Notes under the pieces: generated by a model
Databases searched by the model: none
Seen by the model: the letters and a program-made list of their open reading frames with translations, nothing else
Told to the model about the DNA's origin: nothing
Part shown: positions 9,641 through 22,552 of the stretch, piece after piece
Layout of the letters: each line of letters starts with the position of its first letter
Position numbering within the stretch: position 1 is the stretch's first letter
Program-made: the position numbers and the translations under genes
Origin: a virus
Lineage: Duplodnaviria; Heunggongvirae; Uroviricota; Caudoviricetes
Virus record (IMG/VR): IMGVR_UViG_3300047159_000064
Length of the DNA stretch: 64,000 nucleotides
Direction: 5' to 3' (one strand)

Positions 9641-10498
9641 TTACGCCTTCGACGCTGTCAGGCTGAGCCTGAGCGACTTGATGGTGGAATCGACGTACTT
9701 GTAGAGACGCTGGTTGTTGGCGTTTCTCACCGCTTGCACGGCGGCTCTGAGCTCGTCCGCCGAAATCTCGTATTTCTCGGCGAAATAGGCTTCGTAGTCG
9801 TCGGGGAGCTGGCTGAGGATCTGAACGACGCGGTACGGCCAGAACTGGGTGTACTCTTCCGAGCTCTTGACCTCGTTGCCGCTCTCGTCGACGCCTTTCT
9901 TCGTCTCTTTGGTGCGCTTCTCGCAGTCGTTGAAGGCGATGGTGTCCATGACGATGGCCTCGACGGGCTTCTTGGAATCGATGTACTTCTGGATGATGAG
10001 CTTCGCGCTGATCTTGTCCTTCTCGAGCTCGTCCGAGTCGTCGTGGACGGTGTCCAACAGCGTGCTGTCGCCGTCTTCCCCATCCAAAGGCTCGTCGAAG
10101 CTGACGGTCTGGAAATTCGCGCGGTGCTTGTCCAGGTTGGCCTGATAGTAGTGCTGGAGGCGGATGGTCTCGATGCACTGGTTGATGGCCTGCTGGGCGT
10201 TGCACTTCTTCGCCGGATTCTGCCACGCTCTGTACTTGCACGCGTAGTTGATGGCTTCGGCGAGCCACATGAAGAACTCTTCGTAATCGAGGTTGATGCC
10301 GGGGCTTTTGACGGCCATCTTGTCGATGGTGTACCAGAAGCGGAGGATCAAGGCCGAGAAGTAGGCCGACTTCATAGACTCGTCGCCTTCGTCCAATGCC
10401 TTGCAGTATCCGTTGGCCAGATCGTCGCAGCTAATGGACTGATAGTCTCCCAAAAGCTTGGCGTATCTGATGCAGTCCTGTCTTGCGTCTTGAATCAT
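9641..10498 (-). CDS. hypothetical protein (285 aa); candidate regulator (speculative)
   Basis: ORF track; the GAAATCTCCCTGATT palindromic motif overlaps its stop codon. Confidence 0.45.
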   Translation of the reverse strand: MIQDARQDCIRYAKLLGDYQSISCDDLANGYCKALDEGDESMKSAYFSALILRFWYTIDKMAVKSPGINLDYEEFFMWLAEAINYACKYRAWQNPAKKCNAQQAINQCIETIRLQHYYQANLDKHRANFQTVSFDEPLDGEDGDSTLLDTVHDDSDELEKDKISAKLIIQKYIDSKKPVEAIVMDTIAFNDCEKRTKETKKGVDESGNEVKSSEEYTQFWPYRVVQILSQLPDDYEAYFAEKYEISADELRAAVQAVRNANNQRLYKYVDSTIKSLRLSLTASKA

Positions 10499-10526
10499 GA
10501 TGCCGACCTCCTTTCTTTAGCTGTCT

Positions 10527-10895
10527 TTATAAAACGTGGATGATGTTCTGAATGAGATAGCTGTTGTGCTCGACGGCGCATTCCTTGGCGGCCAAGGTGC
10601 GCTGCATGTCGTTGCCGGAGCGGACCAGGCGGCAGAGAGCGTGGCCGCTGAGGATCATGGCCATGTCGTGGCCGTACTTGGTCTTCTTGAGGATGTAGCG
10701 GAAGTCGCGGGTGCCGTAGCGCTCGAAGCCTGAGACGGTCCAGCCGTCCACGGTCTTGCCGAGGTACTTGCTGATGCCGCGCGGGCGGCCGCGCTTGACG
10801 GCGGGTTTCGCGACGAAGGCGATTTTCTTGCCTTTGGCGAAGTTCTTCTTGTTGGCGTTCTTGCGGCTGATGGTGAGTTTCTTGTCTGCTTTCAT
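10527..10895 (-). CDS. basic putative DNA-binding protein (GRPRG AT-hook-like)
   Basis: Lys/Arg-rich N-terminus. Confidence 0.45.
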   Translation of the reverse strand: MKADKKLTISRKNANKKNFAKGKKIAFVAKPAVKRGRPRGISKYLGKTVDGWTVSGFERYGTRDFRYILKKTKYGHDMAMILSGHALCRLVRSGNDMQRTLAAKECAVEHNSYLIQNIIHVL

Positions 10896-10919
10896 GGATT
10901 TTCTCCTTTTCCTTATGGT

Positions 10920-10972
10920 TTTATTATATCAGGCTTTTCGCCCGATGTAAACGATTTTCCGAAGTTTTTTTT
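10920..10972 (-). promoter_or_regulatory. early promoter box copy 6
   Basis: tgtaaacgattttccgaag with a ttattatat -10. Confidence 0.6.
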
Positions 10973-10976
10973 TCAC

Positions 10977-11147
10977 TTCGCTTCGACGGGCACGACGTAG
11001 CATCTGCATTCGCCGTCCGTGTCCTCGCGGCGCTGCTTCACGGCTTTGTTGGCCTCAGGCTTGGTGTCGAACTGGCCGAGCGATTCGTGGTTGCCCTCGT
11101 AGTCGTCGAAGGCCTCGAATTTCTTTTTCTCGCCCATAGGCTACTCC
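10977..11147 (-). CDS. small hypothetical protein (about 56 aa, MGEKKKFEAFDDYEGNHE...), TGA stop
   Basis: Manual translation; coordinates approximate. Confidence 0.3.
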
Positions 11148-11476
11148 CTGCCGAGCACTTTCGCCGTGGCCTCGTAGACGGTCCCGACGTTCTGCTCTTC
11201 TCCGTCGACTTCAACGACCGTCTCGACCTGAAGCATGACGTAGCTAACGCCGTCCGGGACGTCCAGCTTCTGAGCCAGCGCCTCGACGTCGAGATCGACC
11301 GCGGCGCTCACGGCTTCGTCGGGATCAGGCCATTCGCTGATGAACTGCTCGTAGTCGGTGACGTTCATCTTTTTGTCGTAGCCCAAAGCCCAGATCTGAT
11401 ACTTAGGCTTCTGCTCGGCGAAATCCGGGATGTCCTCAGCCATCTTCTCGGCTTCGTCTTTCTTTTCTTCGGCCAT
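11141..11476 (-). CDS. acidic hypothetical protein (start MAEEKKDEAEK)
   Basis: SD AAGGAGGA before ATG; TAG stop. Confidence 0.5.
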   Translation of the reverse strand: MAEEKKDEAEKMAEDIPDFAEQKPKYQIWALGYDKKMNVTDYEQFISEWPDPDEAVSAAVDLDVEALAQKLDVPDGVSYVMLQVETVVEVDGEEQNVGTVYEATAKVLGRE

Positions 11477-11478
11477 GA

Positions 11479-12210
11479 TCAGTCCTCCTTGATCCACATG
11501 AATCTGCCGTCTTCGCTCTTCTCGACCCGGCATCCGCTCTTGTCGGTCCGCGAAAGCAGATCGGCGAACGCGTCGGTCAGGCTCTTGAGGACAGAGATCC
11601 CCGAGACGTCGACTTTGCCGTCCTTGACCTCGAGCGGCTTGATGCCCAAAGCGGCGAGATCCTTAGAGTAATCGCAGTTGAAATCGGACACGGCGGAATT
11701 CATGGCATCTCCCGAGAAGCTCATCTTCGACAGGTCGTTGGCGTAGTCGCGGATGTCGTCGCAGAGCTTGTCGAAATCTCGGACGAGCTTCGTCATGGCG
11801 ACGAGGTTGCCGTGCCAGTCCGCGACTCGCTCGCCTTCGGCCTTGACGGCCTCTTTGAACGAGCCGTAGTCGTCGAACTCGGTGACGTAATCGTCGAGGA
11901 CGTTCTTCATGTCCCGCTCGTTGTAGAGGACGAGGTAGCCGCTCGATCGGCCGTTGAAGCCGACCTTGTAGCCTTTGTGGTCGTACTCCCAGTCTTCGAT
12001 CATCTGATTGACAGTGGCGTATTCCTCTTCCTCGAGGAACTTGAGGGCGGTCCAGCAATCGCCTTCCAAGCCCAAAGAATAGATCTTGACTTTGTTGGCG
12101 ACGCTGTACAGGCCGTTCCACGAGTTGAGCGTGGAATACGTGAAGTGGTCGTGCAAGAACTGCCACATCTCTTTGTCTTTGGTGATGTCGACTCCGGTTT
12201 TGTAGAACAT
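11479..12210 (-). CDS. hypothetical protein (243 aa); genuine TGA stop (junk follows in frame)
   Basis: ORF track. Confidence 0.55.
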   Translation of the reverse strand: MFYKTGVDITKDKEMWQFLHDHFTYSTLNSWNGLYSVANKVKIYSLGLEGDCWTALKFLEEEEYATVNQMIEDWEYDHKGYKVGFNGRSSGYLVLYNERDMKNVLDDYVTEFDDYGSFKEAVKAEGERVADWHGNLVAMTKLVRDFDKLCDDIRDYANDLSKMSFSGDAMNSAVSDFNCDYSKDLAALGIKPLEVKDGKVDVSGISVLKSLTDAFADLLSRTDKSGCRVEKSEDGRFMWIKED

Positions 12211-12227
12211 GTTTGTTTTCCTCCAAC

Positions 12228-12285
12228 TGTTATTATTATAGGCCTGCGAAAGCTGAAAGTAAACGGTTTTCCGAAGATTATCTTC
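12228..12285 (-). promoter_or_regulatory. early promoter box copy 7
   Basis: agtaaacggttttccgaag with a ttattattata -10. Confidence 0.6.
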
Positions 12286-12604
12286 GGCCGCCGTTGTGGG
12301 CGAATTCGTCGTCCAGCCGGACGCCCATGCCGGAGCCTCTCATGTAGGCGTTGTACACGTACTCGACCAGCTGGGTCTTGCCGTGCTTCGCTTTGACGTT
12401 GTCCACGAAATTGCGAAGGGCGATGGTGTCGTTGGCTCCGCTGACCACGGAAAGGATGAGGCTTCTGAACTCTTCTTCGCCGACCGAGCCGTCCGCATAG
12501 GCTTCGTTGATCTTCTGCATGCCGTCGCCGAGGCACTTCGAGTAAGTGCCTTTGGTCTCAGACAGGTCTCTGCAGCGTTTCTTCGTGTCGATGATGACTG
12601 ACAT
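12278..12604 (-). CDS. hypothetical protein (108 aa)
   Basis: ORF track. Confidence 0.5.
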   Translation of the reverse strand: MSVIIDTKKRCRDLSETKGTYSKCLGDGMQKINEAYADGSVGEEEFRSLILSVVSGANDTIALRNFVDNVKAKHGKTQLVEYVYNAYMRGSGMGVRLDDEFAHNGGRR

Positions 12605-12624
12605 TTTGGTGTTCCTCTTTTCTT

Positions 12625-12685
12625 ATGATATCATTATAAGCTGGAAAAACCGTTTTGTAAACGGTTTTCCTGAGAAAATTGACGC
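12625..12685 (-). promoter_or_regulatory. early promoter box copy 8
   Basis: tgtaaacggttttcctgag with a cattataag -10. Confidence 0.6.
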
Positions 12686-12689
12686 GACC

Positions 12690-12986
12690 TTAGGCCTTGT
12701 CGGCCTTATGCCAGTCGCCGTGCTCGTCCTGCTTGATCTCGCCGGCCTTCTCGAGATAGCCGATGGCTTCCGAGCTGGCGTCCGAGAACTCAGGGCAGGA
12801 ATCCTGGACTTTGCTGCGGTGCCGGTCTTCCGGATCGTCTGTGTGGAAGATGTCCTGATTCCAGTCGACTCCGACGTCATTGCCTTCGATCCACACGTTC
12901 ATCCAGTACAGCTTGCGGTCCTGGGACCTCCGCATGCGGACGGCCCATTGCCCGTTCTGCTTCTCGAGCTTGTCTGCCTTGTACAT
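12690..12986 (-). CDS. hypothetical protein (98 aa)
   Basis: ORF track. Confidence 0.5.
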   Translation of the reverse strand: MYKADKLEKQNGQWAVRMRRSQDRKLYWMNVWIEGNDVGVDWNQDIFHTDDPEDRHRSKVQDSCPEFSDASSEAIGYLEKAGEIKQDEHGDWHKADKA

Positions 12987-13142
12987 AGCCGATTCCTCCT
13001 TCGCCTGCCCTATCAGGGGTGGCTGTGCTCTTTCATCCAGGCGGTTCTGATCTGCTTGGCTTTCTCTCCGACTGTCATCGGCTTCTTGGCCGACGAATGA
13101 TGGTATCTGCTCTTTGTCATCGTTTCAATGACCTCCTATTGA

Positions 13143-13200
13143 TGCTATCATATCGCGCTCGATTCGGAAAGTAAACCGTTTTCCGAGGTTTATTTTCGGC
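13143..13200 (-). promoter_or_regulatory. early promoter box copy 9
   Basis: agtaaaccgttttccgagg with a tatcatatcg -10. Confidence 0.55.
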
Positions 13201-13438
13201 CGAGCTTTTTGCGGAGCTGATCCAAAGTGCCGCTGAAGAGCTCTTTCGAGCCGTAGCCGGAAGACGAGCCTTCCGCGACCTCAAGTGTCACGTTGAGCTT
13301 GCCGTCCGCGTCGTAGCTGAGCCTGGTGATGACCGAGCCGTCCCAGGACTGAGCGGCTACCTTGAGCCCGCTGTTCTTGGTGCCGCAGCGAGTGGCTTCT
13401 CCGCGAGAACCGACGATAGAACCGTAGAATGCTGACAT
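13190..13438 (-). CDS. hypothetical protein (82 aa)
   Basis: ORF track. Confidence 0.5.
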   Translation of the reverse strand: MSAFYGSIVGSRGEATRCGTKNSGLKVAAQSWDGSVITRLSYDADGKLNVTLEVAEGSSSGYGSKELFSGTLDQLRKKLGRK

Positions 13439-13461
13439 AGTGATTTCCTCCTCACTTGATT

Positions 13462-13510
13462 CTATTATATGCCTGCCTGATTGAGATGTAAACGGTTTTC
13501 CGAAGAAAAA
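13462..13510 (-). promoter_or_regulatory. early promoter box copy 10 (TTTACA-17-TATAAT exact)
   Basis: minus strand cttcggaaaaccgTTTACAtctcaatcaggcaggcaTATAAT. Confidence 0.65.
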
Positions 13511-13550
13511 AAAAACAAAGCCCGATATCAGGAGGAATTGATATCGGGCC
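13506..13550 (-). terminator. rho-independent terminator (GCCCGATATCA-loop-TGATATCGGGC plus T-run)
   Basis: 11-bp stem followed by TTTGTTTTTTTTTT on the minus strand. Confidence 0.6.
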
Positions 13551-13613
13551 GACTTCGTGCCTTCCCTATGCCCTCACCGGCTGGGACAGGCGGTCTGTTT
13601 GGTTTTCTTTTTT

Positions 13614-13814
13614 TTAGCGAAGCTCCGGCCTGAGCAAGTCGGAAAGCTCGGCGATGTTCGCGAGGAGGCTCTTGCCCGCCGGGTTCATCCCGCCTAGGCT
13701 GGCCATCCCTTTCTTGAGCTCGAAATAAGCGTCTCCGTAAGGATGTGCGACGTCGAGCCCGTAGCGCTCAGCGAGCGTCTTGAGCACGAGATCGAAGATT
13801 TCTTTGTCTTGCAT
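13614..13814 (-). CDS. hypothetical protein (66 aa)
   Basis: ORF track. Confidence 0.45.
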   Translation of the reverse strand: MQDKEIFDLVLKTLAERYGLDVAHPYGDAYFELKKGMASLGGMNPAGKSLLANIAELSDLLRPELR

Positions 13815-13864
13815 TGCTTGCCTCTCTTATATTATACGGCGAATCGATCTGAAGAACGGCCTTT

Positions 13865-14579
13865 TTACGCGACTTTCTTCTCGCAGTATCCGCGAAGCAC
13901 CCTGAGCACGGTCTGGCTGGTGATCGTCCCTACGGCGAAGCCCGACGACACGCCGGCCCATTTGACGCCGCAGTAATTGGCAGAATGCCGCATCTTGTCC
14001 CTGAACGCGCTTTCCTTGATAGTCGAATCGGCCAGGCCTTCGAGAACCATGACGTCGCGGAATTCCTTGACTTTGCCCTCGGGGACCTTGAGCGTGACGC
14101 CGGTCAGCTCGAACGCTTCGGCGACAGGCGCCTCGGACGCCTGAGAGGACTCGGAGACCTGCGCGACTTCGGTCTGAGCGGACTCCGGATGCGGGCCTGC
14201 CGTCAGCGTGAGATCGCAGAGGCTCAAGGGCGAACTTAGACGAAGACGGGATGGCCGGAAGGCTGTCGATTTCGGACAGGTTGCCGGCTATGGCTTTGAC
14301 GTCCGACCGATAGCTGAGGTATCTCTTGATCAGCGAGACGAATTTCATCGTCTGGACCGGAGTCATGTTGCCCATGCCAAGGATGTGGTACAGGTCGATC
14401 ATGACTATGCGGCTCATGATGCCGGATTCCGCGCGGCAGAACGTCCGCAGCTTTAGCAGATCGGCGACGGTCATCTTAGACAGATCGTCCGTCGACTTGA
14501 CGTGATTGAGGTACATGCCGCAGAGCGAGACCCTGTCGGCCAAAGACTTCATGATAAGATCGTAGCTTTCTTTCTTCAT
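13865..14579 (-). pseudogene. hypothetical protein with an apparent frame break near 14215-14230 (N-part in frame of 13827-14579, C-part = ORF 13865-14227)
   Basis: Protein-like sequence changes frame; the continuation of the N-part frame is Arg-rich junk. Confidence 0.4.
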
Positions 14580-14824
14580 CGCATTGCCTCCTGGGCGTCA
14601 GCCTTCTTGACGAGGACGCCTCCGTCGTACTCCTGCTTCCAATAGTGGTAGTTGCCGCCTCGATCGTAGAACTCGATGAGGTAATGGCTTTCCGAATCCT
14701 TGTAGCTGTGGTAGTCCGTCGTGTCGCTGACTATGCGGAACATCTCGTAGAACCCGACGTGCCCGCAGATCCTGATTTTGACGAAATCGCCTTCTTCGGC
14801 TTTGACCAGCTTCTTGCCTTCCAT
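14576..14824 (-). CDS. hypothetical protein (82 aa); genuine TGA stop
   Basis: ORF track. Confidence 0.5.
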   Translation of the reverse strand: MEGKKLVKAEEGDFVKIRICGHVGFYEMFRIVSDTTDYHSYKDSESHYLIEFYDRGGNYHYWKQEYDGGVLVKKADAQEAMR

Positions 14825-14826
14825 GA

Positions 14827-15090
14827 TCAGACTCCCCTCACGTTGATGACTTTGGCTTCCACCTTGACGCCGGGGGCCGGAGAGAACCAGCCTTTGGCCA
14901 CGGTGAAGTCCGTGGCGGCCACCAAAGAGCTCGACAGGCTGCCGATGAACAGGTCTTCGTCGTCTATCTGAGCCAGGCCGTATTGCCAGCCTTCGTCGCA
15001 GAACACGACGATCTCCCCGACTTTCGTCTCGTGGAGCAGGTATTCGCCGACGGTCTTTCCGTTGTGGGCGATGTAGTGATCGATTTCCAT
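14827..15090 (-). CDS. hypothetical protein (87 aa); genuine TGA stop
   Basis: ORF track. Confidence 0.5.
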   Translation of the reverse strand: MEIDHYIAHNGKTVGEYLLHETKVGEIVVFCDEGWQYGLAQIDDEDLFIGSLSSSLVAATDFTVAKGWFSPAPGVKVEAKVINVRGV

Positions 15091-15557
15091 CAGTCCGCCT
15101 CCTTGGCCGCGGCCAGCTCGTTGAAGATGCCGTCTATCGCCTCGAACACGGCCGGCAGCATCAGCTCGTTGATCTTCTTGGCCTCGTCTTTGTCTTCGAC
15201 GGCCCGAAGGTAGGCTTTGCTCGTGTAGTTGCTCCCGCCCTTAAGCATGACCTCGGCGGCCGACTTAAGCGTGTAGAACGAGTCCATGAGGTCGCAGAGC
15301 TTCCAGAGGTCCTCGTCGGAAATCGACATGACTCTGAACTTCTTCTTCATGGCGTCGAACGCGCTTAGCCCAGAATCCGCGACCGTGCAATCCCAATGGG
15401 TGTGCGACTTGAACGACGGGCGCCCTGTGGCGTTGTATCCTTCGAGGTAGCCGAAGCCCCAGTACCAACCGCAGTCCCAGCTCGGCTTAGGCATATAGAC
15501 CTTCTCGCCGTCTTTCGTGACGCCGAGGTAATATCCTTTTTCTGTGATGAGTCCCAT
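15090..15557 (-). CDS. hypothetical protein (155 aa); genuine TGA stop
   Basis: ORF track. Confidence 0.5.
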   Translation of the reverse strand: MGLITEKGYYLGVTKDGEKVYMPKPSWDCGWYWGFGYLEGYNATGRPSFKSHTHWDCTVADSGLSAFDAMKKKFRVMSISDEDLWKLCDLMDSFYTLKSAAEVMLKGGSNYTSKAYLRAVEDKDEAKKINELMLPAVFEAIDGIFNELAAAKEAD

Positions 15558-16701: not shown

Positions 16702-16726
16702 GGTTGTTTCCTCCTCAACCTTACGA

Positions 16727-16785
16727 GAATATCATACGCCCATTCAAGGCAGTTGTAAACGGTTTTCCGCAATTTATTTTCTGCC
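16727..16785 (-). promoter_or_regulatory. early promoter box copy 12
   Basis: tgtaaacggttttccgcaa with an atatcatacg -10. Confidence 0.6.
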
Positions 16786-16802
16786 GCAGCAGGCCTGCCG
16801 CG

Positions 16803-16845
16803 GAAAAGAAAAGGCCGGCGCTCTGTCGGCCCTTCTTATTTTGGA
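16803..16845 (-). terminator. rho-independent terminator (GGCCG-loop-CGGCC with T-runs)
   Basis: gaaaagaaaaggccggcgctctgtcggcccttcttatttt. Confidence 0.5.
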
Positions 16846-16853
16846 TCCCGCGG

Positions 16854-17114
16854 CTAAAACCGATAGTCGTACGTCACGACGACCTCTTTGACGAACACCG
16901 AGCCCCATTGGCACTTTATCTCGCCGGTCGCTTTGTCGTACGTCCCGCCGTTCCCCGCGATGTAAGCCTGAGCAGCGAGCCCTGGCGAGCGGTAGAGCTT
17001 GGGCGAATTCGTCGCCTTGATCTCCTCGAGCGGCACGAAATGCCAGCTCCAGCTGCGGCAGCCTACCCCGCCTTCGCCGTTGACTATGCAGTATCTCTTG
17101 TACGTCCTGACCAT
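16854..17114 (-). CDS. hypothetical protein (86 aa, MVRTYKRYCIVNG...); the longer ORF 16854-17450 is Arg-rich overlap
   Basis: SD GGAGGCGG before the internal ATG. Confidence 0.45.
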   Translation of the reverse strand: MVRTYKRYCIVNGEGGVGCRSWSWHFVPLEEIKATNSPKLYRSPGLAAQAYIAGNGGTYDKATGEIKCQWGSVFVKEVVVTYDYRF

Positions 17115-17131
17115 CCTGCCGCCTCCTTGGG

Positions 17132-17701
17132 CTAATCGGCGATCCACCGGATTTCCGGCGAGCCCTTGAAGCCTTTCTCCCAGACCATCCAGCAATAGGC
17201 GACGGCCGAGCCTTCGGTGAAGTCGTCCTTCGCCGAGCAGACCTGCCGCTTGACGAACACGTAGACGGCCTTCGGCGGATTGTCTTTCATCAGGCGGTCG
17301 TATCTGCCTTGGCCTTCCAGGAACTGAAGCCGGAGGAACGCGGCGACCTTCCTGCCGTCTCCGACGAGGCTGAGCGCCTTTGACACGAATTTCTCCGCGT
17401 CGCAGTACGGCGGGTTCATCACGATGTCGCCGCCGAACGGCTCGCCGCACTTCAGGAAGTCTATCATCTCGTCTCCGAAGCCGTAATCGAAGATGTCCGA
17501 CGCCTTGACGTCGTAGCCTTTGGCCTTGAGCTCGTTCACGATGTTGTGATGGCCGGCTCCCGGCTCCCAGACCTCATGGCTGAACGACTCTCTTTCCAGA
17601 AGGCTGCGGACGGCCGACGGGTCGGTGCCGTAGTAATCCAAGGCGGATCTCTCTTTGTCGCTCAGATTCGACGCCCCTAACGTGTTGTTGACGGTGTTCA
17701 T
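17132..17701 (-). CDS. DNA N6-adenine methyltransferase (NPPY motif IV, EPGAGHH motif I)
   Basis: DIVMNPPY and EPGAGHHNI motifs. Confidence 0.6.
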   Translation of the reverse strand: MNTVNNTLGASNLSDKERSALDYYGTDPSAVRSLLERESFSHEVWEPGAGHHNIVNELKAKGYDVKASDIFDYGFGDEMIDFLKCGEPFGGDIVMNPPYCDAEKFVSKALSLVGDGRKVAAFLRLQFLEGQGRYDRLMKDNPPKAVYVFVKRQVCSAKDDFTEGSAVAYCWMVWEKGFKGSPEIRWIAD

Positions 17702-17729
17702 TTTAGTTGGCTCCTTTTTCTCTTAACGC

Positions 17730-17785
17730 CATTATTATGCCGCGGAACGGCTGCTTGTAAACGGTTTTCCGAAGTTTTTTTTCGG
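17730..17785 (-). promoter_or_regulatory. early promoter box copy 13
   Basis: tgtaaacggttttccgaag with a cattattatg -10. Confidence 0.6.
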
Positions 17786-17830
17786 CGGCCCCAAGCGGTT
17801 AGTCGGCCTTTTCTATTTCTTTTTTTCTAG

Positions 17831-18046
17831 CTACTCTTTGTCGAGCAGGTACCTGAACAGGCCCGGCTGGAACATCCAGACGGCCGGAAGCACGCAGAAC
17901 GCGGTCAGGCCTTCTATGACGACGTTCCAGACGCTGAGCCCCAGAAGCGGGATCATTATCGCGTTGGCTATCGTCGGGGCTAGCAGAATCGTCAGAGCGA
18001 TGAGCAGGTTGACGGAGAATTCGAGCAGTCTTTTAATTTTGTCCAT
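17831..18046 (-). CDS. small membrane protein with 2 TM helices (holin-like, speculative)
   Basis: Two hydrophobic helices in 71 aa. Confidence 0.45.
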   Translation of the reverse strand: MDKIKRLLEFSVNLLIALTILLAPTIANAIMIPLLGLSVWNVVIEGLTAFCVLPAVWMFQPGLFRYLLDKE

Positions 18047-18069
18047 ATGCGGGCTCCTTTAAGCCTCAT

Positions 18070-18125
18070 GAAAATATCATATCGCGGAAAAGCGGGTTCG
18101 TAAACGGCTTTCCGAAGAAAATCCG
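18070..18125 (-). promoter_or_regulatory. early promoter box copy 14
   Basis: cgtaaacggctttccgaag with an atatcatatcg -10. Confidence 0.55.
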
Positions 18126-18197: not shown

Positions 18198-18241
18198 TGC
18201 GCATAAGTATTATAACAATAATACTTATGCGCATGAGGGAT
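18198..18241. repeat. 44-bp perfect palindrome CTCATGCGCATAAGTATTAT-AACA-ATAATACTTATGCGCATGAG
   Basis: Arms are exact reverse complements; shares the core AAGTATTAT with the palindrome at 22186. Confidence 0.6.
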
Positions 18242-18276: not shown

Positions 18277-18726
18277 CTAATCTGCCTCTCCGGAGGGGTA
18301 AGTCGCCGACAGCAGGGCCAGAGCCTCGGAGGCGACGTCGAAATCCCCCAGGCCGCAGCAGTCCAGCCAGACCTTCAGCGTCCTGCCCCAGCACACGAGC
18401 CTGCGATCCGAATGCCCGCCGTTCTGGAACCTCTCGACCCTGGCCCCAGGCCAATCCCTGAACCTGGCGACCGTGTCGAGCTCCGAGTCTATGACTTTCT
18501 CCATGTCGTCCTTGTATTGGGTGTTGCCCGAGCCGAACTCCAGCGTCCCGCCTTTCCACGCGGCGATCAGCTGGTCTCCCATGGGGTCCTCGAAGAAGTC
18601 GACTTCCTGTCCTCTGTAGCTGAGGTGATCGGCGGGCTTTTCCGAAATCCCCCTGATTGCCGAAGAGGCCGAAATCTCCCTGATTCCGCCCTGCCCGGAA
18701 ACCGAAATCTCCCTGATTTCGCCCAT
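18277..18726 (-). CDS. hypothetical protein; N-terminal 30 codons are encoded by three tandem copies of the palindromic GAAATCTCCCTGATT motif (true start may be the internal Met near 18582)
   Basis: ORF track; MGEIREISVSGQGGIREISASSAIRGISEK comes from the repeats. Confidence 0.4.
   Translation of the reverse strand: MGEIREISVSGQGGIREISASSAIRGISEKPADHLSYRGQEVDFFEDPMGDQLIAAWKGGTLEFGSGNTQYKDDMEKVIDSELDTVARFRDWPGARVERFQNGGHSDRRLVCWGRTLKVWLDCCGLGDFDVASEALALLSATYPSGEAD
18640..18725. repeat. three tandem copies of the palindromic motif CGAAATC-YCCCT-GATTYCG
   Basis: ccgaaatccccctgattgccg / gccgaaatctccctgattccg / accgaaatctccctgatttcg. Confidence 0.6.
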
Positions 18727-18730
18727 CCGC

Positions 18731-21131
18731 CTAAGCCTCCAGCACCATGCTCTTCAGCTGGTCCGAGAAACGCTCGTTAGGCACGTCGTCTATGACGTAA
18801 TCGCTGAGATCCTTCTTCTCGCCGACTATCTTCGCCACCCGCTCGTCTATCGTGCCGGCGCAAGAGAGCACCACGACGTTCGCCGGCCTCTGATTGGTGA
18901 CCCTCCATATGCGATCCGTGGCCTGAGAGAACTCCGAGTACGTGTAAGGGGTGTCCAAGGCTATCATGTAGCTGGCCGCGTTGAGCGTTATGCCGGTCGA
19001 GCATTTGCCGAACGTGCCGATGAACGCCTGCTCCTTCGGGTCGGTCTGGAACCTCTCGACGTCGGCGGAGAACACGTCGTCCGGCGTATCTCCAGTGTTT
19101 ATCGAGCCTTTGACCTTGCCTCTCAGCATGTCCGCCAGCTCGTATATCGATTCTTTGAACGTGCCGAAAACGACTACTTTCTCGCCCTGTGACGCGAGCT
19201 CCTCGACGAGCTCGGCGCAGCGCTCCAGCTTGGTGGCAGGTATCTGCTGGGAAGTCAGTATGCTCGGGCAGGACGTGGCCTGCCTGAGCCTGGTCGTGAG
19301 GGCCAGCAGGTTCGCCGGCTTCAGATCTATCTTGTCGGCCTCTTCGCGGACGCCGTCGGCGATCGCGTCGTAGAAGCGCCTGTGCTCGTCGTCCATGTCG
19401 AGCGATTCGTAGGTCACCGTCTTAGGCGGCAGAGAGTCCCTGACCTGGTCGAGCGTCCTCCTGAGGCTGCAGGAGTCGAGCTCCTCCTTCAGCAGATCGA
19501 GGTTCTTGTATCCGACTATCTGGCTGTCGTTGAATCCGCCGAATTCGCAGTATTGCGACTTGAACATCGTCAGCGTCGATCTGTCGTTCTCCGTCCACGA
19601 CAGCGGGACGTACATCGAAATCGGGCTGTTGGTCAGAAGGGTGCCGGTGGCTGCGACTTCGAACGGGGCCTTCAGCTTGAGCAGATTGGTGCCCTGGGTC
19701 GATGACTTAGTCGCGCAGTTATGGACTAAAATGCCGTTCGCATAGAAATTATGGTTGCCCTCGACCGCGAGATCGTAAACTGGCTCTGCTGCTATTACTT
19801 TTTTAGATACTAACTTTGCCATTTTTATGCCAGCTCCCGCCGCCGCTTAAGCCCAGATACCTATTTAATGCGCGAATTTGATTGTATGGGATAAGATAGA
19901 TAAGTTCCAGATGCCTATTAGGGCAATTGTTTTTGTATTTGAGATAATCTCGCTTATAATCTTCGATCTTTACGCCATGAGCCGATATAAAAGCTTCCCA
20001 GTGTAACTTTTTTCTTTCCTTGCCGGAAATCTTTGCGGCGTCTTTCATCCTTTGTCTGTACTCTGGCGTTTTTCACAGCTCTGCTGAGCGCTCTTGCATT
20101 GCGGCTATGCCTTTAGCAATCTTTATATCATCGTCCGCAGTTAAATCTTTTGCCTTTACCCAGCCGCGGTTGTTGGTGTATATCTTGTGCGACGCCGTGC
20201 ATTTTAGCTTTATTGTTCTGTTATCGTCGATCAAGGTCAGCTCCAGAAGCGGCTCTCTCGGCTGCGATTCCGTTACGGACGAAATCTGCCGAAATTCGTT
20301 TTGCCCTGTTTTCTTATTGTAGGAAAGCACCTTAGGCAGAGCTTTTAATTGGCTGATTTCGCCGATAGTAAATTTTCCGGCGTCGGTCAATACTACAGAA
20401 TCTCCGGTAAGGCATTTATGGATTTCGTCGACCGCTATCATGCCGAATTTCGTCTCTGACTTCAGGAAGGCCGCGGTCACCGCGGGGGACCTGAGCGTCT
20501 CGACGTTCGTGATCACGAAAAACTCGGCGATCTCGCCTTTGAGCTCTTTGGCCCTCTCAGGCAGAGACGCGTAATGCACCCTGCCCTTCTTGCTTATCCT
20601 CTCGCCTAAGATCCTGCAGCTCTCGTTCGAGAACCTGGAGATCTCTTTCTTCCAGTTCTGCTTGACCGCGTTGACCCCGCAGACTATGAAGCAGTGCTCT
20701 ATGGCCCCTCTGCGCTTGAGGGCTTCGGCCAGTCAGATTATTTCGGCAGTCTTGCCCAGGCCCATCGAGTCGAGCAGAAGCCACTTGGGGTGTTTTAGCC
20801 CGAAGTCGACCGCTTCTATCTGATGCCTGAACGGCGGCTGCTTGAGGCCGTCTATCTCTTCCTGGGACAGCGGGCGGAATCCCCCTGATTCCGACTCGCC
20901 TTCCGGCCAATCCAGGAGATTCAGCCTCACCTGATCGATGAAAACGGCCGAGTCCAGCAATTGGGCCAGGCAGCTCGCCGGTATCTCTCAGATCCGGTCT
21001 TTCTTGTGGTAGTATCAGTTCGGCAGGGCCTTCAGCGCGGCGACCAAGGCCTCGCTGTACTCCGACCTGACCACGAAGCTGGAAAGCCCGCTGACTTTGC
21101 CCGGCGGGCTGACTTCCGTAATCTCTATCAT
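18731..21131 (-). CDS. SNF2-family helicase containing an intein (with HNH-like endonuclease) after motif II; 4 in-frame TGA codons (about 21015, 20988, 20733, 20073) and a +1 frame break at an A5 run near 19822-19850
   Basis: GLGKT Walker A; DEIHK then CLTGDS intein N-terminus; VYDLAVEGNHNFYANGILVHN-C intein C-terminus; ATGTLLTNSP motif III; QATDRIWRVTNQ motif VI; ORFs 20733-20960, 20073-20579 and 19803-20048 share one frame, separated only by TGA. Confidence 0.65.
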
Positions 21132-21240
21132 GGCCTAAAGCCTCCTAAGAATCCTCGACGCTAAAAAGCGCCCAAAGGCGAAATCTCCCCGATTCCGGCT
21201 CCTTCGCGGCGCGCGAAAACGAAATCTCCCCGATTCCGCC

Positions 21241-21564
21241 TTAGTCTCCCAGTATGGAGGAATAAGGGGTCGTGAAATCGAGCTCTTCGTCCTCCGGCTT
21301 CGTCTTGACGGTCAGAGTCGCCTCTACGACGAACGGCTTCCCGCAGCTCTCGCACGTGAAGTGCTCGACCAGGGTCGGCTCGTCGCCTTCCTTGTATTCC
21401 TCGTAGATGATCTTGCCGAGGGCGTCCTTGATGACGGACGACGGCTTGCCCAGGATCTCCCCCGGCATGAACACCTCCGTCGGGTGGTACTCGCAGTGGC
21501 AGTAAGGGCAGACCACCGTGGCCTTCTTCTGCTGATCGGCTTTCTGGCCGTTTGATGCTGGCAT
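21241..21564 (-). CDS. zinc-ribbon protein (CPYCHC...CESCG)
   Basis: ORF track; two Cys pairs. Confidence 0.5.
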   Translation of the reverse strand: MPASNGQKADQQKKATVVCPYCHCEYHPTEVFMPGEILGKPSSVIKDALGKIIYEEYKEGDEPTLVEHFTCESCGKPFVVEATLTVKTKPEDEELDFTTPYSSILGD

Positions 21565-21720
21565 AGATAAAGTCTCCTTCGGGCCCGCGCTTGGGCGGGG
21601 CTATGGCGCAATCGCCTCTGATATACTATACGGCTTTCGCCTGCGCGGTATGGCCCGAAATTTGGCTGAATTCAGACATTCGCCTAGGCCGGAAAAACGA
21701 GATCTCCCCGATTTCGGCCT

Positions 21721-21835
21721 CGCATGCGCGCGCACGCATATATACGCGCGCCCGCGCGCGCCTCTTGTCTGGATCTATATGATCCAGCGCTATACGCGCG
21801 CACGCACGCGCGCGCCTCTTGTCTGGATCTATAGG
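21721..21835. repeat. two direct repeats of about 50 bp containing alternating CG tracts (cgcgcgcnCGCGCGCGCCTCTTGTCTGGATCTATA) plus the GGATCTATATGATCC palindrome
   Basis: Visible duplication; (CG)n stretches have Z-DNA potential. Confidence 0.55.
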
Positions 21836-21949
21836 ACTGGAGTATTATAATACAGACATACTAAAGATAGTTAATAATAAGTCATACGCTAAAGCGTATG
21901 ACGGGGGACAGGCCCCCGGGCCGCCTGCTTCAGCTCAGCCCTTTCCCTT

Positions 21950-22110
21950 CAGTTTTTAATAATTTAATAAATCATTAATTTAATAAATCATTAAGTCATT
22001 AAATTATTAGTTTAATAAATCATTAAATTATTAAGTCATTAAATTATTAATTTATTAAGTTAATAAATTATTAAGTCATTAAATTATTAAATCATTAAAA
22101 ACGCGAAAAC
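21950..22110. repeat. AT-rich tandem iteron array (units TTAATAAATCATTAA and ATTATTAAGTCATTAAATTATT)
   Basis: Nearly pure A/T tandem repeats inside a GC-rich genome; candidate origin or DNA-unwinding element. Confidence 0.6.
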
Positions 22111-22185
22111 ATCAGCCGAAATCTGACTAATTAGCCAATCGCAAAGAAAAGGCCTTTTCGAGAGATCGCCGTTTTCGGATTTTAA

Positions 22186-22217
22186 GTATTATTATTATCT
22201 ATAATAATAATACTTAC
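22186..22217. repeat. 32-bp palindrome AAGTATTATTATTAT-CTA-TAATAATAATACTT
   Basis: Exact inverted repeat. Confidence 0.55.
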
Positions 22218-22275
22218 CCATTGTATCATACCGCCTTTCGGGGCCAAAGTAAACGTTTTTCCGAAGAAAATCTCC
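22218..22275 (-). promoter_or_regulatory. early promoter box copy 15 (TTTACT-17-TATGAT) pointing into the repeat/origin region
   Basis: agtaaacgtttttccgaagaaaatctcc with an attgtatcatacc -10. Confidence 0.55.
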
Positions 22276-22552
22276 GGCTTCCCAGACCGGGCTCAGGAGC
22301 AGATTCGCGCAAACGGCTCGTTTTGGAGCGATTCGAGGCTCGGCAAGCAATTTATACTAGGAAGCCGACGAAACTCCCCACGGCTTGAATTAGGCTTGTT
22401 TTTGGAGGCTTCGGGGATATTTCCTTCCTGGCCGCGGGAGAGAAAAACGAAATTTCCTCGATTTCGGCATCAGAAAACGATGCCGGGCCAGGCCGAATCG
22501 CAAAATTCCCGAAAAGCCCTTTCGCGCGCGGGAGAACGCCGTATGATATGGT

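What the first reader, a model, noticed from the sequence alone, without database searches (positions are those of the whole stretch)
9642..22470. Palindromic motif CGAAATC-YCCCY-GATTYCG repeated at least 9 times, including 3 tandem copies that encode a protein N-terminus
Copies at about 9642, 18643, 18672, 18703, 20875, 21180, 21215, 21698 and 22450. Each is a 7-bp inverted repeat around a 5-nt C-rich loop, so it is either a dimeric-protein operator or an RNA stem-loop on the minus-strand transcripts. The copies flank the SNF2/intein gene, the start of 21241-21564 and the plus-strand island, and lie inside coding sequence of 18277-18726 and of SNF2 (ESESGGFRP). Dispersal of this kind is typical of a regulatory or mobile mini-element.
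Basis: seen in the sequence. Interest (0 to 1): 0.6.

Follow-up and report, generated by a model that had tools for sequence, protein, structure and literature searches.

The report
Conserved hairpin repeat around phage SNF2 operon
A 19-base palindromic motif is repeated nine times around a helicase operon of an uncultured T4-like phage; it most likely forms a regulatory RNA hairpin, similar to repeats known in other T4-like phages, and relatives keep it even inside protein-coding sequence.

Summary
Nine strong copies of CGRAATC-N5-GATTYCG lie at 9627, 18643, 18670, 18703, 20875, 21179, 21220, 21698 and 22448, against about 2 loose matches expected by chance. All nine have the same orientation, with the G-rich loop on the minus (sense) strand. 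None lies in the other ~45 kb of the window or in 18.5 kb of flanking sequence recovered from relatives. Eight copies sit in the 3.8 kb around a Zn-ribbon / SNF2 / p149 operon.

The phage is T4-like. Relatives with 31-44% GC carry the same element as A-run / CGAAATY / xGGGA / GATTTCG / T-run. It occurs after stop codons, in tandem before SNF2 (where its loop can serve as the Shine-Dalgarno sequence), and embedded in SNF2 coding sequence through rare codons.

G·U pairs far outnumber A·C mismatches (53 vs 7 in the flanks). The flanks also covary. Both favour a hairpin on the sense transcript over a symmetric double-stranded DNA operator.

Best reading (confidence ~0.45): a cis-acting RNA stem-loop at cistron boundaries that acts in attenuation, mRNA stability or translation control. 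It resembles the stem-loop of T4-type PeSL cassettes. No binding factor was found, and the exact function is inferred. A DNA operator remains a live rival. A mobile mini-element and a chance artefact are not supported.

The parts
22448..22466 (-). Motif copy 1 (sense CGAAATC-GAGGA-AATTTCG, then TTTTT). It lies in the divergent intergenic region, 87 nt upstream of the + strand gene that starts at 22553.
   Evidence: kept in relatives L006-L015
21698..21716 (-). Motif copy 2 (CGAAATC-GGGGA-GATCTCG, then TTTTT). It lies 133 nt upstream of the Zn-ribbon gene start and downstream of promoter-like site 21874-21847.
21220..21238 (-). Motif copy 3 (CGGAATC-GGGGA-GATTTCG, then TTTT). It starts 2 nt after the Zn-ribbon gene's TAA stop codon.
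   Evidence: MFE -10.8, z -2.25
21179..21197 (-). Motif copy 4, in tandem with copy 3 (41-nt period), 47 nt upstream of the SNF2 ATG. In L010/L011/L015 the left junction of a foreign segment lies 14 nt after it.
20875..20893 (-). Motif copy 5, inside the SNF2 coding sequence (ESGGFR), with a perfect stem CGGAATC/GATTCCG. It is homologous to the P-(E/K)-S-G-E-F-(R/H)-F site of distant relatives.
   Evidence: MFE -15.4
18703..18721 (-). Motif copy 6. It starts 2 nt after the ATG of p149, and the extended stem sequesters that ATG.
   Evidence: MFE -14.0, z -3.6
18670..18688 (-). Motif copy 7, in tandem (33-nt period), translated as part of the p149 N-terminus.
   Evidence: z -2.65
18643..18661 (-). 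Motif copy 8, in tandem (27-nt period), with a degenerate 5' arm (GGCAATC); translated.
   Evidence: z +1.0
9627..9645 (-). Motif copy 9 (CGTAATC-AGGGA-GATTTCG). The TAA stop codon of the sigma-like gene 9641-10498 lies inside its 5' arm.
   Evidence: z -2.5
9597..9622 (-). Canonical GC-rich intrinsic terminator (aaaaGGCCG-tcgcgag-GCGGCCtttt), starting 4 nt after copy 9. A promoter-like ccgTATTATAGTATAG follows at ~9580-9595.
   Evidence: read from the sequence
21241..21564 (-). 107-aa Zn-ribbon protein gene (two CxxC pairs), first gene of the operon. Its position directly upstream of SNF2 is conserved in all relatives.
19803..21131 (-). SNF2 helicase N-terminal part (HARP-like, SNF2-rel_dom), followed by the intein N-terminal part. 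It contains 4 in-frame TGA codons read as Trp.
18731..19822 (-). Intein C-terminal piece (MAKLVSKKVIAAEPVYDLAVEGNHNFYANGILVHN|C), followed by the SNF2 C-terminal part (Helicase_C).
18277..18726 (-). p149, a conserved 145-150 aa protein that follows SNF2 in all relatives. Its first ~30 residues are encoded by the three tandem motif copies.
20280..20298 (-). Weak, degenerate copy (sense CGAATTTCGGCAGATTTCG) inside the intein coding sequence. Similar weak or half copies occur at 21656-21674, 22117-22135 and 5605-5623 (the last is a translation start region with the Shine-Dalgarno sequence in the loop).

Best explanation
The motif is the DNA image of an RNA stem-loop that forms on the minus-strand (sense) transcripts of the Zn-ribbon / SNF2 / p149 operon, with one further copy at the end of the sigma-like gene.

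It is the GC-adapted form of an element shared by a clade of T4-like phages: A-run / CGAAAUY / xGGGA loop / GAUUUCG / U-run.

Proposed mechanism: the hairpin forms at cistron boundaries, just after stop codons, in the 5' leader, and at or next to translation start sites. There it most likely (a) partly stops or pauses transcription, or after processing caps the 3' end of the upstream cistron. It also most likely (b) sets translation of the next cistron. It would do this by showing a Shine-Dalgarno-like GGAG/GGA in an open loop while pairing the adjacent sequence: the p149 start codon here, and the SNF2 Shine-Dalgarno-to-AUG spacer in relatives. The conserved loop and arm sequences suggest that an unidentified trans-acting factor (a protein, a nuclease or the 30S subunit) reads it.

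Shown by the data: the enrichment, the single orientation, the positions relative to genes, conservation in relatives including inside coding sequence, and the strand asymmetry of pairing.

Inferred only: that the RNA rather than the DNA is the active form, and every functional consequence.
For: (1) Enrichment and clustering: 26 matches against ~2 expected. There are nine strong copies, all in one orientation, and none in ~63 kb of other sequence.

(2) Positions. One copy starts 2 nt after the Zn-ribbon stop codon. One overlaps the stop codon of the sigma-like gene. One starts 2 nt after the p149 ATG. Tandem copies lie before SNF2. All are in transcribed sense sequence, and none overlaps a predicted promoter.

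(3) Strand asymmetry. In the core stems, G·U 25 vs A·C 13. In the +/-5-nt flanks, which were not used for detection, G·U 53 vs A·C 7. Sense RNA is more stable than antisense in 31 of 39 unique 35-mers, by a mean of 2.6 kcal/mol. Random 35-mers from the window show +0.6 kcal/mol, i.e. antisense slightly more stable. Position 3 is G in 10 of the 38 unique 19-mers as a G·U pair, while its partner at position 17 stays T.

(4) Extended helix. Flank pair +/-2 is paired in 35 of 39 copies, as GU 14, GC 13, AU 6 and UA 2. The covariation score is 0.239 against 0.187 in shuffles (1 of 500 reached it).

(5) Clade conservation. Intermediate relatives (40-44% GC) have aaaaaCGAAATYxGGGAGATTTCGttttt after stop codons. 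They have three tandem copies between the Zn-ribbon stop and the SNF2 ATG, and the last copy's loop is the SNF2 Shine-Dalgarno sequence (AGGGAGATTTCGTTATG). Distant relatives keep AGGAGATTTCGTTTT as the SNF2 translation start region.

(6) Selection at nucleotide level inside SNF2. Pro is CCG in 9 of 9 cases (background 14.6%). Ala is GCG in 6 of 6 (background 8.8%). Arg is CGN in 11 of 11 (background 39%). Neighbouring synonymous sites vary freely.

(7) The phage is T4-like. T4-like phages are known to carry conserved stem-loops at stop codons as part of PeSL cassettes, drawn with G-T pairs and shown to terminate transcription (PMC2839356, PMC4122927).
Against: The hairpins are weak: MFE -6 to -15 kcal/mol with flanks. 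Four of nine fold no better than shuffled sequence.

Only 3 of 9 window copies have a run of 4 or more U after the stem. The terminator scan flagged only part of one copy.

Copy 9627 is followed 4 nt later by a canonical terminator, and one copy in relative L061 is preceded by one. The motif is therefore unlikely to be a simple terminator.

The arm sequences, not just the pairing, are conserved across 31-55% GC, and true compensatory changes in the core are few. This fits recognition of sequence, possibly in double-stranded DNA.

In two contexts in relatives the motif lies exactly 13 nt upstream of TATAATATAAT, at the -35 position of a promoter.

Two good copies in L061 lack the GGG loop.

The copies were found with a matrix built from a palindrome, so the core-stem statistics are circular. 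The copies are also related by descent, so the counts are not independent.

No binding factor was found. Rfam has no match.
Confidence: 0.45

Rival explanations
1. The motif is a double-stranded DNA operator for a dimeric phage or host transcription factor. The two 7-bp arms would be the half-sites. The factor would act at promoters in relatives and as a roadblock inside the SNF2 operon here, in the manner of mycobacteriophage 'stoperators'.
For: A near-perfect 7-bp inverted repeat with a fixed 5-bp spacer.

The arm sequence CGAAAT/ATTTCG is conserved over a clade with 31-55% GC and only ~50-60% protein identity.

In distant relatives, CGAAAT half-sites occur as 9-nt direct repeats and as long-range inverted repeats upstream of SNF2.

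Motif + 13 nt + TATAATATAAT occurs in two independent contexts in relatives, one of them just after a canonical terminator.

Two L061 copies have perfect arms but unrelated loops.
Against: No window copy overlaps a promoter or has a -10 box 11-15 nt downstream.

The loop is strongly asymmetric and always in one orientation.

Variation is not mirror-symmetric: position 3 is often G while position 17 stays T. The flanks are complementary only if G·T counts as a pair (53 vs 7).

Sites embedded in coding sequence with a conserved T-run are unusual for operators.

No helix-turn-helix or other DNA-binding protein was identified nearby. The AlphaFold model of the Zn-ribbon protein was too poor to use (pLDDT 51).
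Confidence: 0.22
2. The motif is an RNA operator for a specific trans-acting factor that reads the GGA/GGAG loop. This is a more specific form of the best explanation. Candidates are a CsrA-type translational repressor, a RegB-type endoribonuclease that cuts GG|AG, and an N/boxB-type antiterminator.
For: GGA is in the loop in 7 of 9 copies. GGAG, with GGA unpaired and the fourth G in the closing pair, occurs in 6 of 9. That is the context reported as optimal for T4 RegB acting without S1 (PMC3014915), and the phage is T4-like.

Tandem sites 27-41 nt apart, with the last one overlapping the SNF2 Shine-Dalgarno sequence in relatives, match the layout of CsrA-regulated leaders (the comparison with CsrA rests on my own knowledge).

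Copy 9627 and one relative's copy lie just upstream of canonical terminators, as nut sites do.

The 112-aa + strand protein has an arginine-rich N-terminus, LRPKRRKGRK.
Against: No CsrA or RegB homologue was found in about 150 kb of held phage DNA. That test used query sequences recalled from memory, so it is weak. PHROGs and Pfam scans gave nothing either.

The sequence 3' of GGAG (AUUUCG) does not fit the T4 RegB/S1 consensus GGAGRAYARAA (PMC3014915).

Only 4 of 9 loops fit a GNR(N)A boxB-like pentaloop, and no boxA was seen.

Some good copies in relatives lack GGA altogether. The host is unknown.
Confidence: 0.15
3. The motif is mainly a recombination or duplication module: a conserved patch that spreads by local duplication and serves as a homology site for mosaic exchange between related phages (the PeSL 'modular shuffling' idea). 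On this view it has little regulatory role of its own, close to the reader's 'mobile mini-element'.
For: Copy number at the same intergenic site differs between lineages: 2 here, 3 in L061, 0-1 in distant relatives. Tandem arrays have periods of 27, 33 and 41 nt.

L010, L011 and L015 carry a foreign low-GC segment (a GIY-YIG homing endonuclease gene plus the 5' part of SNF2). Its left junction lies 14 nt after copy 21179.

PeSL repeats in T4-like phages are proposed to act this way (PMC2839356).
Against: There is no presence/absence polymorphism of single copies and no target-site duplication among close relatives. Only one mosaic junction was seen, and it is also explained by homing-endonuclease co-conversion.

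Rare-codon conservation of the element inside SNF2 across the clade and the strand-specific pairing point to selection for a function rather than passive spread.
Confidence: 0.1
4. Chance, low-complexity sequence, or a repeat selected at protein level (GEIREIS-like peptides).
For: Three copies are translated, and the SNF2 copy overlaps a moderately conserved peptide. Single exact 19-mers occur by chance in many unrelated genomes.
Against: None of 100 shuffles reaches the observed count.

Five of nine copies are non-coding. The coding copies are read in two different frames, giving EIREIS and ESGGFR.

Of the 240 loci returned by the two collection scans, the five with more than one hit were the only ones checked for relatedness, and L061 and L134 encode Zn-ribbon and SNF2 homologues.
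Confidence: 0.02

Closest known systems
PeSL / PmSL cassettes of T4-like phages (promoter-early stem-loops; Arbiol et al. 2010, PMC2839356; Comeau et al. 2014, PMC4122927)
   Same: The host phage is T4-like. A short stem-loop with a conserved sequence is repeated many times in the early/middle region. It sits right after stop codons, has A-rich and T-rich flanks, tolerates G·T pairs, and always points in the direction of transcription. In intermediate relatives it is fused to a -10 box (stop codon / A-run / stem-loop / T-run / 13 nt / TATAATATAAT / start). One mosaic junction lies next to a copy.
   Different: In this window no copy is joined to a promoter. The early promoters here (aaaaCTTCGGAAAAYCG-TTTACA-N17-TATAAT) are a separate repeat.

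The stems are AU-rich and weak rather than G-run/C-run. The loop is conserved and resembles a Shine-Dalgarno sequence. Copies lie inside coding sequence (p149, SNF2) and are held there by rare codons in relatives.

The copies concentrate on one operon rather than on hyperplastic ORFan regions. Terminator activity has not been tested.
Stoperators of cluster A mycobacteriophages (repressor sites scattered through transcribed regions); comparison from my own knowledge
   Same: There are many copies of one short site inside transcription units, near stop and start codons, all in one orientation relative to transcription.
   Different: Stoperators are asymmetric 13-bp sites spread over the whole genome and bound by the immunity repressor of a temperate phage. 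This motif is palindromic, clustered on one operon of a (probably lytic) T4-like phage, and no repressor is known for it.
Lambda nut boxB hairpins and T4 RegB / CsrA-type GGA-loop RNA sites
   Same: A short stem presents a purine-rich pentaloop, in leaders and between cistrons and sometimes just before terminators. GGAG occurs with GGA unpaired and the fourth G paired, the context described for RegB in PMC3014915. There are tandem sites, one of which overlaps a Shine-Dalgarno sequence in relatives.
   Different: No boxA, N, RegB or CsrA homologue was found. The sequence 3' of GGAG differs from the RegB/S1 consensus. There are nine copies where lambda has two nut sites. Some copies in relatives lack GGA.
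Lambda ori iterons (four ~19-bp dyad-symmetric O-protein sites inside the O gene); comparison from my own knowledge
   Same: Tandem 19-bp palindromes lie in phase inside a coding sequence. An AT-rich repeat block is nearby (21960-22100).
   Different: The tandem array here is 3.3 kb from the AT-rich block. Other copies are spread over the operon. Pairing is strand-specific (G·U). No initiator protein was identified.

Membership tests
PeSL-type composite terminator/promoter cassette (T4-like phages) | The host genome is a T4-like myovirus | tested here: met
   Gp23, the S77 prohead protease, gp13, gp19 and T4_baseplate domains occur on the same contig as the window's right end. Tail sheath and baseplate PHROGs were also found.
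PeSL-type composite terminator/promoter cassette (T4-like phages) | A conserved stem-loop repeated in intergenic regions just after stop codons | tested here: met
   Copies lie 0-2 nt from the stop codons of the Zn-ribbon, SNF2-C and sigma-like genes. The same holds in L061, L074 and L095. However, 4 of 9 copies are inside coding sequence.
PeSL-type composite terminator/promoter cassette (T4-like phages) | The stem-loop is physically joined to a sigma-70-like early promoter | tested here: not met
   No window copy has a -35 or -10 element at promoter distance. This feature is met only in relatives, in two contexts with TATAAT 13 nt downstream.
PeSL-type composite terminator/promoter cassette (T4-like phages) | The stem-loop terminates or attenuates transcription | not testable with these tools
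   Indirect evidence only: weak stems and a U-run after 3 of 9 copies.
PeSL-type composite terminator/promoter cassette (T4-like phages) | Association with insertions, deletions and mosaic junctions between close relatives | tested here: inconclusive
   One foreign segment starts 14 nt after copy 21179 in L010/L011/L015. This is a single event and is confounded by a homing endonuclease gene.
Intrinsic (Rho-independent) terminator | A stable GC-rich stem directly followed by a U-tract | tested here: not met
   Core stems give -1 to -8 kcal/mol. A U-run of 4 or more follows 3 of 9 copies. The scan flagged only part of copy 21698. A canonical terminator sits right after copy 9627.
Dimeric-protein DNA operator | An inverted repeat with fixed spacing | tested here: met
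   7-bp arms with a 5-bp spacer in all copies.
Dimeric-protein DNA operator | Mirror-symmetric conservation of the half-sites, with no strand preference | tested here: not met
   The loop is always purine-rich on the sense strand. G3/T17 is common while A3/C17 is absent. Flanks show G·T 53 vs A·C 7.
Dimeric-protein DNA operator | Overlap with, or close proximity to, a promoter | tested here: not met
   Not met in the window. Met in two contexts in relatives.
Dimeric-protein DNA operator | A cognate DNA-binding protein encoded nearby | tested here: inconclusive
   No helix-turn-helix domain was found. The Zn-ribbon protein has a weak PHROG match to 'DNA binding protein' (E 5e-4), but its model is unusable.
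RegB-type endoribonuclease target (T4) | GGAG with GGA unpaired and the fourth G constrained | tested here: met
   Six of nine copies (loops AGGGA|G and GGGGA|G). The criterion is taken from PMC3014915.
RegB-type endoribonuclease target (T4) | A regB gene in the phage, and an A-rich GGAGRAYARAA context | tested here: not met
   No homologue was found in the held DNA, but the test was weak. The 3' context is AUUUCG.
CsrA/RsmA-binding hairpin | GGA in the loop of a short hairpin; several sites, one over the Shine-Dalgarno sequence | tested here: inconclusive
   GGA is in the loop in 7 of 9 copies. Overlap with a Shine-Dalgarno sequence is seen only in relatives. The host and its CsrA are unknown.
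MITE-like / mobile mini-element | Presence/absence polymorphism with target-site duplication; terminal repeats plus a transposase source | tested here: not met
   Positions are the same in all relatives. The only loss (the SNF2 copy in L010/L011/L015) is part of a 1.2-kb segment replacement.

The most novel reading that the evidence does not exclude
The motif is the recognition site of a so far unknown sequence-specific regulator. The regulator could be RNA-binding (for example an N/boxB-like antiterminator, a RegB-like nuclease or a translational repressor) or it could bind one DNA strand. It would control a Zn-ribbon / SNF2 helicase / p149 module throughout a clade of TGA-recoded T4-like gut and rumen phages. 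Its sites are written into the SNF2 reading frame through otherwise rare codons (CCG, GCG, CGT) and multiplied to nine copies in this GC-rich lineage.
Probability: 0.2. Interest if true: 0.6.

Novelty: new variant of a known kind. Interest (0 to 1): 0.4.

Why it matters
The element gives a concrete, testable cis-regulatory signal for a large group of uncultured T4-like phages whose early genes have no recognisable regulators.

It marks the Zn-ribbon / SNF2 / p149 module as a specially controlled unit.

It is a clear case of a nucleic-acid signal kept inside a protein-coding gene by rare codons across genomes that range from 31 to 55% GC. It also shows how such a signal is reshaped when base composition shifts: A-U pairs become G·U pairs on the sense strand only.

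If a dedicated factor reads it, that would add a new phage regulatory system. If it is only a PeSL-like stem-loop, that would extend the PeSL idea beyond the cultured T4 relatives.

Tried and rejected
- Exact-pattern scans of IMG/VR, metagenome contigs and GTDB genomes. Almost all hits are single chance hits in unrelated organisms. No host genome with many copies appeared, so the idea of a host REP-like or host-regulator site is not supported. Five metagenome loci (L033, L061, L074, L095, L134) carry several copies; L061 and L134 encode Zn-ribbon and SNF2 homologues and the other three share the motif cassettes.
- Rfam at gathering threshold on the whole window and at permissive E-value on 18-22.7 kb: nothing relevant.
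- blastn of 17-23 kb against GenBank phages: no match.
- AlphaFold2 of the Zn-ribbon protein from 11 homologues: pLDDT 51, too poor for a fold search. No fold search was run.
- Pfam and PHROGs on about 45 proteins of the early region: no regulator, RegB, MotA, AsiA or CsrA.
- tblastn with remembered CsrA and RegB sequences: nothing. This is a weak test.
- Alternative start for p149 at Met48, which would have made the three tandem copies non-coding: rejected by homology.
- Phage-type promoter or MotA-box-like element in the window: rejected, because no -10 box follows any window copy.
- SECIS-like role for the in-frame TGA codons: rejected, because the copy lies more than 90 nt from the nearest TGA and Trp fits the homologous positions.
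- CRISPR-like array for the three tandem copies: rejected, because the spacers are only 8 and 14 nt.

Full report

Yes. The pattern CGAAATCNNNNNGATTYCG with up to two mismatches matches 26 times (both strands counted). Dinucleotide-preserving shuffles give 1.96 +/- 1.75, and none of 100 reaches 26.

A position weight matrix (PWM) built from the copies separates nine strong sites (24.9-30.9 bits) from a background of 20 bits or less. The sites are 9627-9645, 18643-18661, 18670-18688, 18703-18721, 20875-20893, 21179-21197, 21220-21238, 21698-21716 and 22448-22466. All nine have the C-rich centre on the + strand. On the minus strand, which is the sense strand of nearly all genes here, the motif reads CGRAATC-RGGGR-GATTTCG.

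No strong copy occurs in 25-64 kb, which holds NrdD and the tail genes. None occurs in 9.1 kb beyond the left end or 9.4 kb beyond the right end, as recovered from near-identical contigs. Eight of the nine lie within 3.8 kb. The motif is therefore clustered, not dispersed.

**2. Genomic setting**

The window comes from an uncultured T4-like myovirus. The contig that continues its right end carries the Gp23 capsid protein, the S77 prohead protease, gp13, gp19 and the T4 baseplate. The window itself holds tail sheath, baseplate and tail fibre genes. Related contigs are 104-226 kb long.

The motif region is an operon on the minus strand:
- a 107-aa Zn-ribbon protein (21564-21241);
- an SNF2 helicase interrupted after DEIHK by an intein and encoded as two ORFs (21131-19803 and 19822-18731);
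- a 149-aa protein, p149 (18726-18277).

SNF2 contains four in-frame TGA codons at positions where Trp fits and where relatives have TGG.

The copies lie as follows:
- two in the long leader and divergent region (22448, 21698);
- two in tandem between the Zn-ribbon stop and the SNF2 start (21220 starts 2 nt after the TAA; 21179 ends 47 nt before the ATG);
- one inside SNF2 (20875, ESGGFR);
- three in tandem starting 2 nt after the p149 ATG (18703, 18670, 18643);
- one whose 5' arm contains the stop codon of a sigma-like gene (9627).

The window has its own abundant early promoters on the minus strand, aaaaCTTCGGAAAAYCG-TTTACA-N17-TATAAT: 21 sigma-70-like sites against 6.2 expected. It also has a second class, ccGTATAATAWAA, without a -35 box. 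The motif belongs to neither class, and no window copy has a -10 box at promoter distance.

**3. Are the three tandem copies really translated?**

Yes. p149 aligns with the 145-150-aa proteins that follow SNF2 in all relatives. The conserved block begins at D-H-L-S-Y-R-G (residue ~33), upstream of the internal Met48. The only canonical in-frame start is M1.

The motif is read in one frame in p149 (E-I-R-E-I-S) and in another in SNF2 (E-S-G-G-F-R). What is repeated is therefore nucleic acid, not peptide.

**4. Relatives**

*Close relatives* (more than 90% identical; L006-L015) keep every copy at the same place. The one exception is the SNF2 copy in L010/L011/L015. There a 1.2-kb low-GC segment has replaced the region. 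It carries a GIY-YIG homing endonuclease gene and a foreign SNF2 5' part. Its left junction is 14 nt after copy 21179.

*Intermediate relatives* (40-44% GC) include L061 and L134, whose Zn-ribbon and SNF2 proteins are ~60% identical to the window's, together with L033, L074, L095 and L269. They carry many copies of aaaaaCGAAATYxGGGAGATTTCGttttt, always in sense orientation.

These copies lie directly after stop codons. In L061 three tandem copies fill the gap between the Zn-ribbon stop and the SNF2 ATG, and the loop of the last copy is the SNF2 Shine-Dalgarno sequence (AGGGAGATTTCGTTATG).

In two independent contexts the motif is followed after exactly 13 nt by TATAATATAAT. In one of those contexts a canonical terminator lies just upstream of the motif.

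*Distant relatives* (31-40% GC; Zn-ribbon protein 49-57% identical) keep the gene order Zn-ribbon, then an uninterrupted SNF2, then the p149 homologue. They lack the full 19-mer in the intergenic region. They do have clusters of CGAAAT/ATTTCG half-sites upstream of SNF2, and they use AGGAGATTTCGTTTT as the SNF2 translation start region.

*Motif-like sites inside SNF2.* Distant relatives have two motif-like sites inside the SNF2 reading frame, both in the same frame and both encoding K/E-x-G-E-F-R-F.
- At these sites Pro is CCG in 9 of 9 cases (background 14.6% of Pro codons), Ala is GCG in 6 of 6 (8.8%) and Arg is CGN in 11 of 11 (39%).
- Neighbouring synonymous positions vary freely.
- This is strong evidence for selection on the nucleotide sequence CG-AAA...TTT-CG-TTT itself.
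- The window's copy 20875 is the first of these two sites. Its stem has been improved to a perfect CGGAATC/GATTCCG. The second site has been lost.

**5. RNA or DNA?**

Evidence for a single-stranded form on the sense strand:
- (a) All copies, in the window and in every relative, have the same orientation with a purine-rich loop.
- (b) In the seven core pairs of 38 unique copies, G·U occurs 25 times and A·C 13 times. Position 3 is often G while its partner stays T.
- (c) In the five flanking positions on each side, which played no part in detection, G·U occurs 53 times and A·C 7 times. The sense RNA folds better than the antisense in 31 of 39 unique 35-mers, by a mean of 2.6 kcal/mol. Random 35-mers from the window show the opposite small bias.
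- (d) The flank pair at +/-2 is paired in 35 of 39 copies, as GU 14, GC 13, AU 6 and UA 2. The overall covariation score (0.239) is reached by 1 of 500 column shuffles.
- In words: as the lineage became GC-rich, the 5' A-run turned into G's while the 3' T-run stayed. That keeps pairing only in RNA, or in that one DNA strand.

Evidence against:
- The hairpins are weak, and four of nine fold no better than shuffled sequence.
- Core compensatory changes are few.
- The arm sequences themselves are conserved across the clade.
- Half-sites occur as 9-nt direct repeats in distant relatives.
- In two contexts in relatives the motif sits where a -35 element or an activator site would be.
- The copies are related by descent and were found with a palindromic matrix, so the statistics overstate independence.

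I put the RNA reading, in any form, at about 0.6 and a double-stranded DNA operator at about 0.2.

**6. What would the RNA do?**

A plain intrinsic terminator is unlikely, for five reasons:
- the stems are weak;
- only 3 of 9 copies have a U-run;
- copies lie inside two genes;
- copy 9627 is followed 4 nt later by a canonical GC-rich terminator;
- one copy in L061 follows a canonical terminator.

The positions point to a cistron-boundary element: after stop codons, in the leader, in tandem before SNF2, and over or next to start sites. The loop resembles a Shine-Dalgarno sequence. Such an element could attenuate or pause transcription, stabilise or mark mRNA ends, and set translation of the next cistron.

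In the window, the extended stem of copy 18703 pairs the p149 start codon. That would tie p149 translation to ribosomes finishing SNF2.

The conserved loop has GGAG with GGA unpaired and the fourth G in the closing pair in 6 of 9 copies. This is the context described as optimal for T4 RegB (PMC3014915), and it also resembles CsrA-type sites. However, no such factor was found, and the 3' context differs from the RegB/S1 consensus. These functional statements are inference.

**7. Comparison with known systems**

The closest described thing is the stem-loop part of PeSL/PmSL cassettes of T4-like phages. PeSL cassettes are conserved stem-loops at stop codons, drawn with G-T pairs, joined to early or middle promoters. 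They have been shown to terminate transcription and are proposed to mediate modular shuffling (PMC2839356, PMC4122927).

The intermediate relatives fit that description well. The window's copies do not meet one defining feature, because they are not joined to promoters. They also differ in being concentrated on one operon, in having a conserved Shine-Dalgarno-like loop, and in lying inside coding sequence.

I therefore file the motif as working like a PeSL stem-loop, but as a new variant rather than a member. Stoperators, lambda boxB/nut sites, lambda ori iterons and CsrA/RegB sites share single features only (see the membership table).

**8. Verdict**

The finding is a real, non-random, lineage-conserved cis-element. 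It is most likely an RNA hairpin with a regulatory role on the SNF2 operon. Its function is unproven, and the DNA-operator rival is not excluded. It is neither a mobile mini-element nor an artefact.

Interest is moderate (0.4). Repeats of this kind are known in T4-like phages. The clade-wide conservation inside a reading frame through rare codons, and the strand-specific reshaping under GC drift, are unusual and make the element easy to test.

Noticed in passing
window 18731-21131 (- strand); also 36822-39929: TGA appears to be read as a sense codon (Trp). SNF2-N has 4 in-frame TGAs at positions where relatives have TGG (e.g. LPN*YYHKKDRI*EIP). A tail-fibre reading frame, 36822-39929, is continuous (1035 aa) only if 5 TGAs are read through. 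All long confident genes end in TAA or TAG, and most late genes contain no TGA. The window has no tRNA gene. Low-GC relatives (L026, L027) also need TGA read as sense in the Zn-ribbon gene.
   Followed up: partly
window 19803-20400 and 19718-19822 (- strand): The SNF2 intein is encoded in two overlapping ORFs in different frames. The first runs from CLTGDSVV... and carries a ~100-aa extra domain ending at 19803. The second starts at the ATG at 19822 and reads MAKLVSKKVIAAEPVYDLAVEGNHNFYANGILVHN|C, like a split-intein C-piece. Relative L011 lacks 179 nt here and has a contiguous mini-intein. The window's intein is therefore either naturally split or frame-disrupted.
   Followed up: partly
window 10900-18110 (- strand): A second repeat family: at least ten early promoters with the long consensus aaaa(a)CTTCGGAAAAYCG-TTTACA-N17-TATAAT, each in front of a small ORF of unknown function (PeSL-like). 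Several are preceded by terminator hairpins (e.g. 13550-13519).
   Followed up: partly
window, - strand: 30550, 13836, 9592, 21630, 33880, 32818, 26201, 24548, 6704, 36241: A third promoter-like class, ccGTATAATAWAA, with no -35 box. It is strongly strand-biased (16 sense vs 6 antisense for GTATWATW) and lies in front of middle/late-looking genes. It may be the target of the phage sigma-like protein (9641-10498).
   Followed up: no
window 21565-22552: A 1-kb control region whose layout is conserved in all relatives. Its parts, in order:
- promoter TTTACT-N17-TATGAT (22253-22225);
- a 15-bp AT palindrome, AAGTATTATTATTAT/ATAATAATAATACTT (22186-22218);
- a block of TAATAAATTAATAA-type tandem repeats (21960-22100);
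- hairpin GTCATACGC/GCGTATGAC (21881-21902);
- two direct repeats of gcgcgcctcttgtctggatctata with alternating CG/CA tracts (21745-21835).
It looks like a T4 oriF/oriG-type origin (a promoter plus an unwinding element) or a small-RNA locus.
   Followed up: no
window 18205-18230, 21843-21856, 22186-22218: Related AT-rich palindromes, (A)AGTATTAT...ATAATACTT. Each contains TATAAT/TATTAT on both strands. One sits at the end of the SNF2 operon (after p149) and two in the control region.
   Followed up: no
L010 700-1930, L011 730-1960, L015 (relatives): A GIY-YIG homing endonuclease gene plus a low-GC (36%) SNF2 5' segment replaces window 20744-21165 in some otherwise 97-99% identical phages. This is a clear case of co-conversion between phages of very different GC content.
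   Followed up: partly
L061 (reverse complement) 1455-1625; L074 (reverse complement) 870-1040: In intermediate relatives, a motif + TATAATATAA promoter drives a ~190-nt non-coding stretch that ends in a good terminator (ccagc-cgaataa-gctgg + T-run). It may be a small RNA. No equivalent was noticed in the window.
   Followed up: no
window 22553-23550 (+ strand): A plus-strand island encodes a 112-aa protein with an arginine-rich N-terminus (LRPKRRKGRK) and a RyR-domain protein (Pfam E 1e-30). The content of the island differs between close relatives (L006 vs L007/L008).
   Followed up: partly
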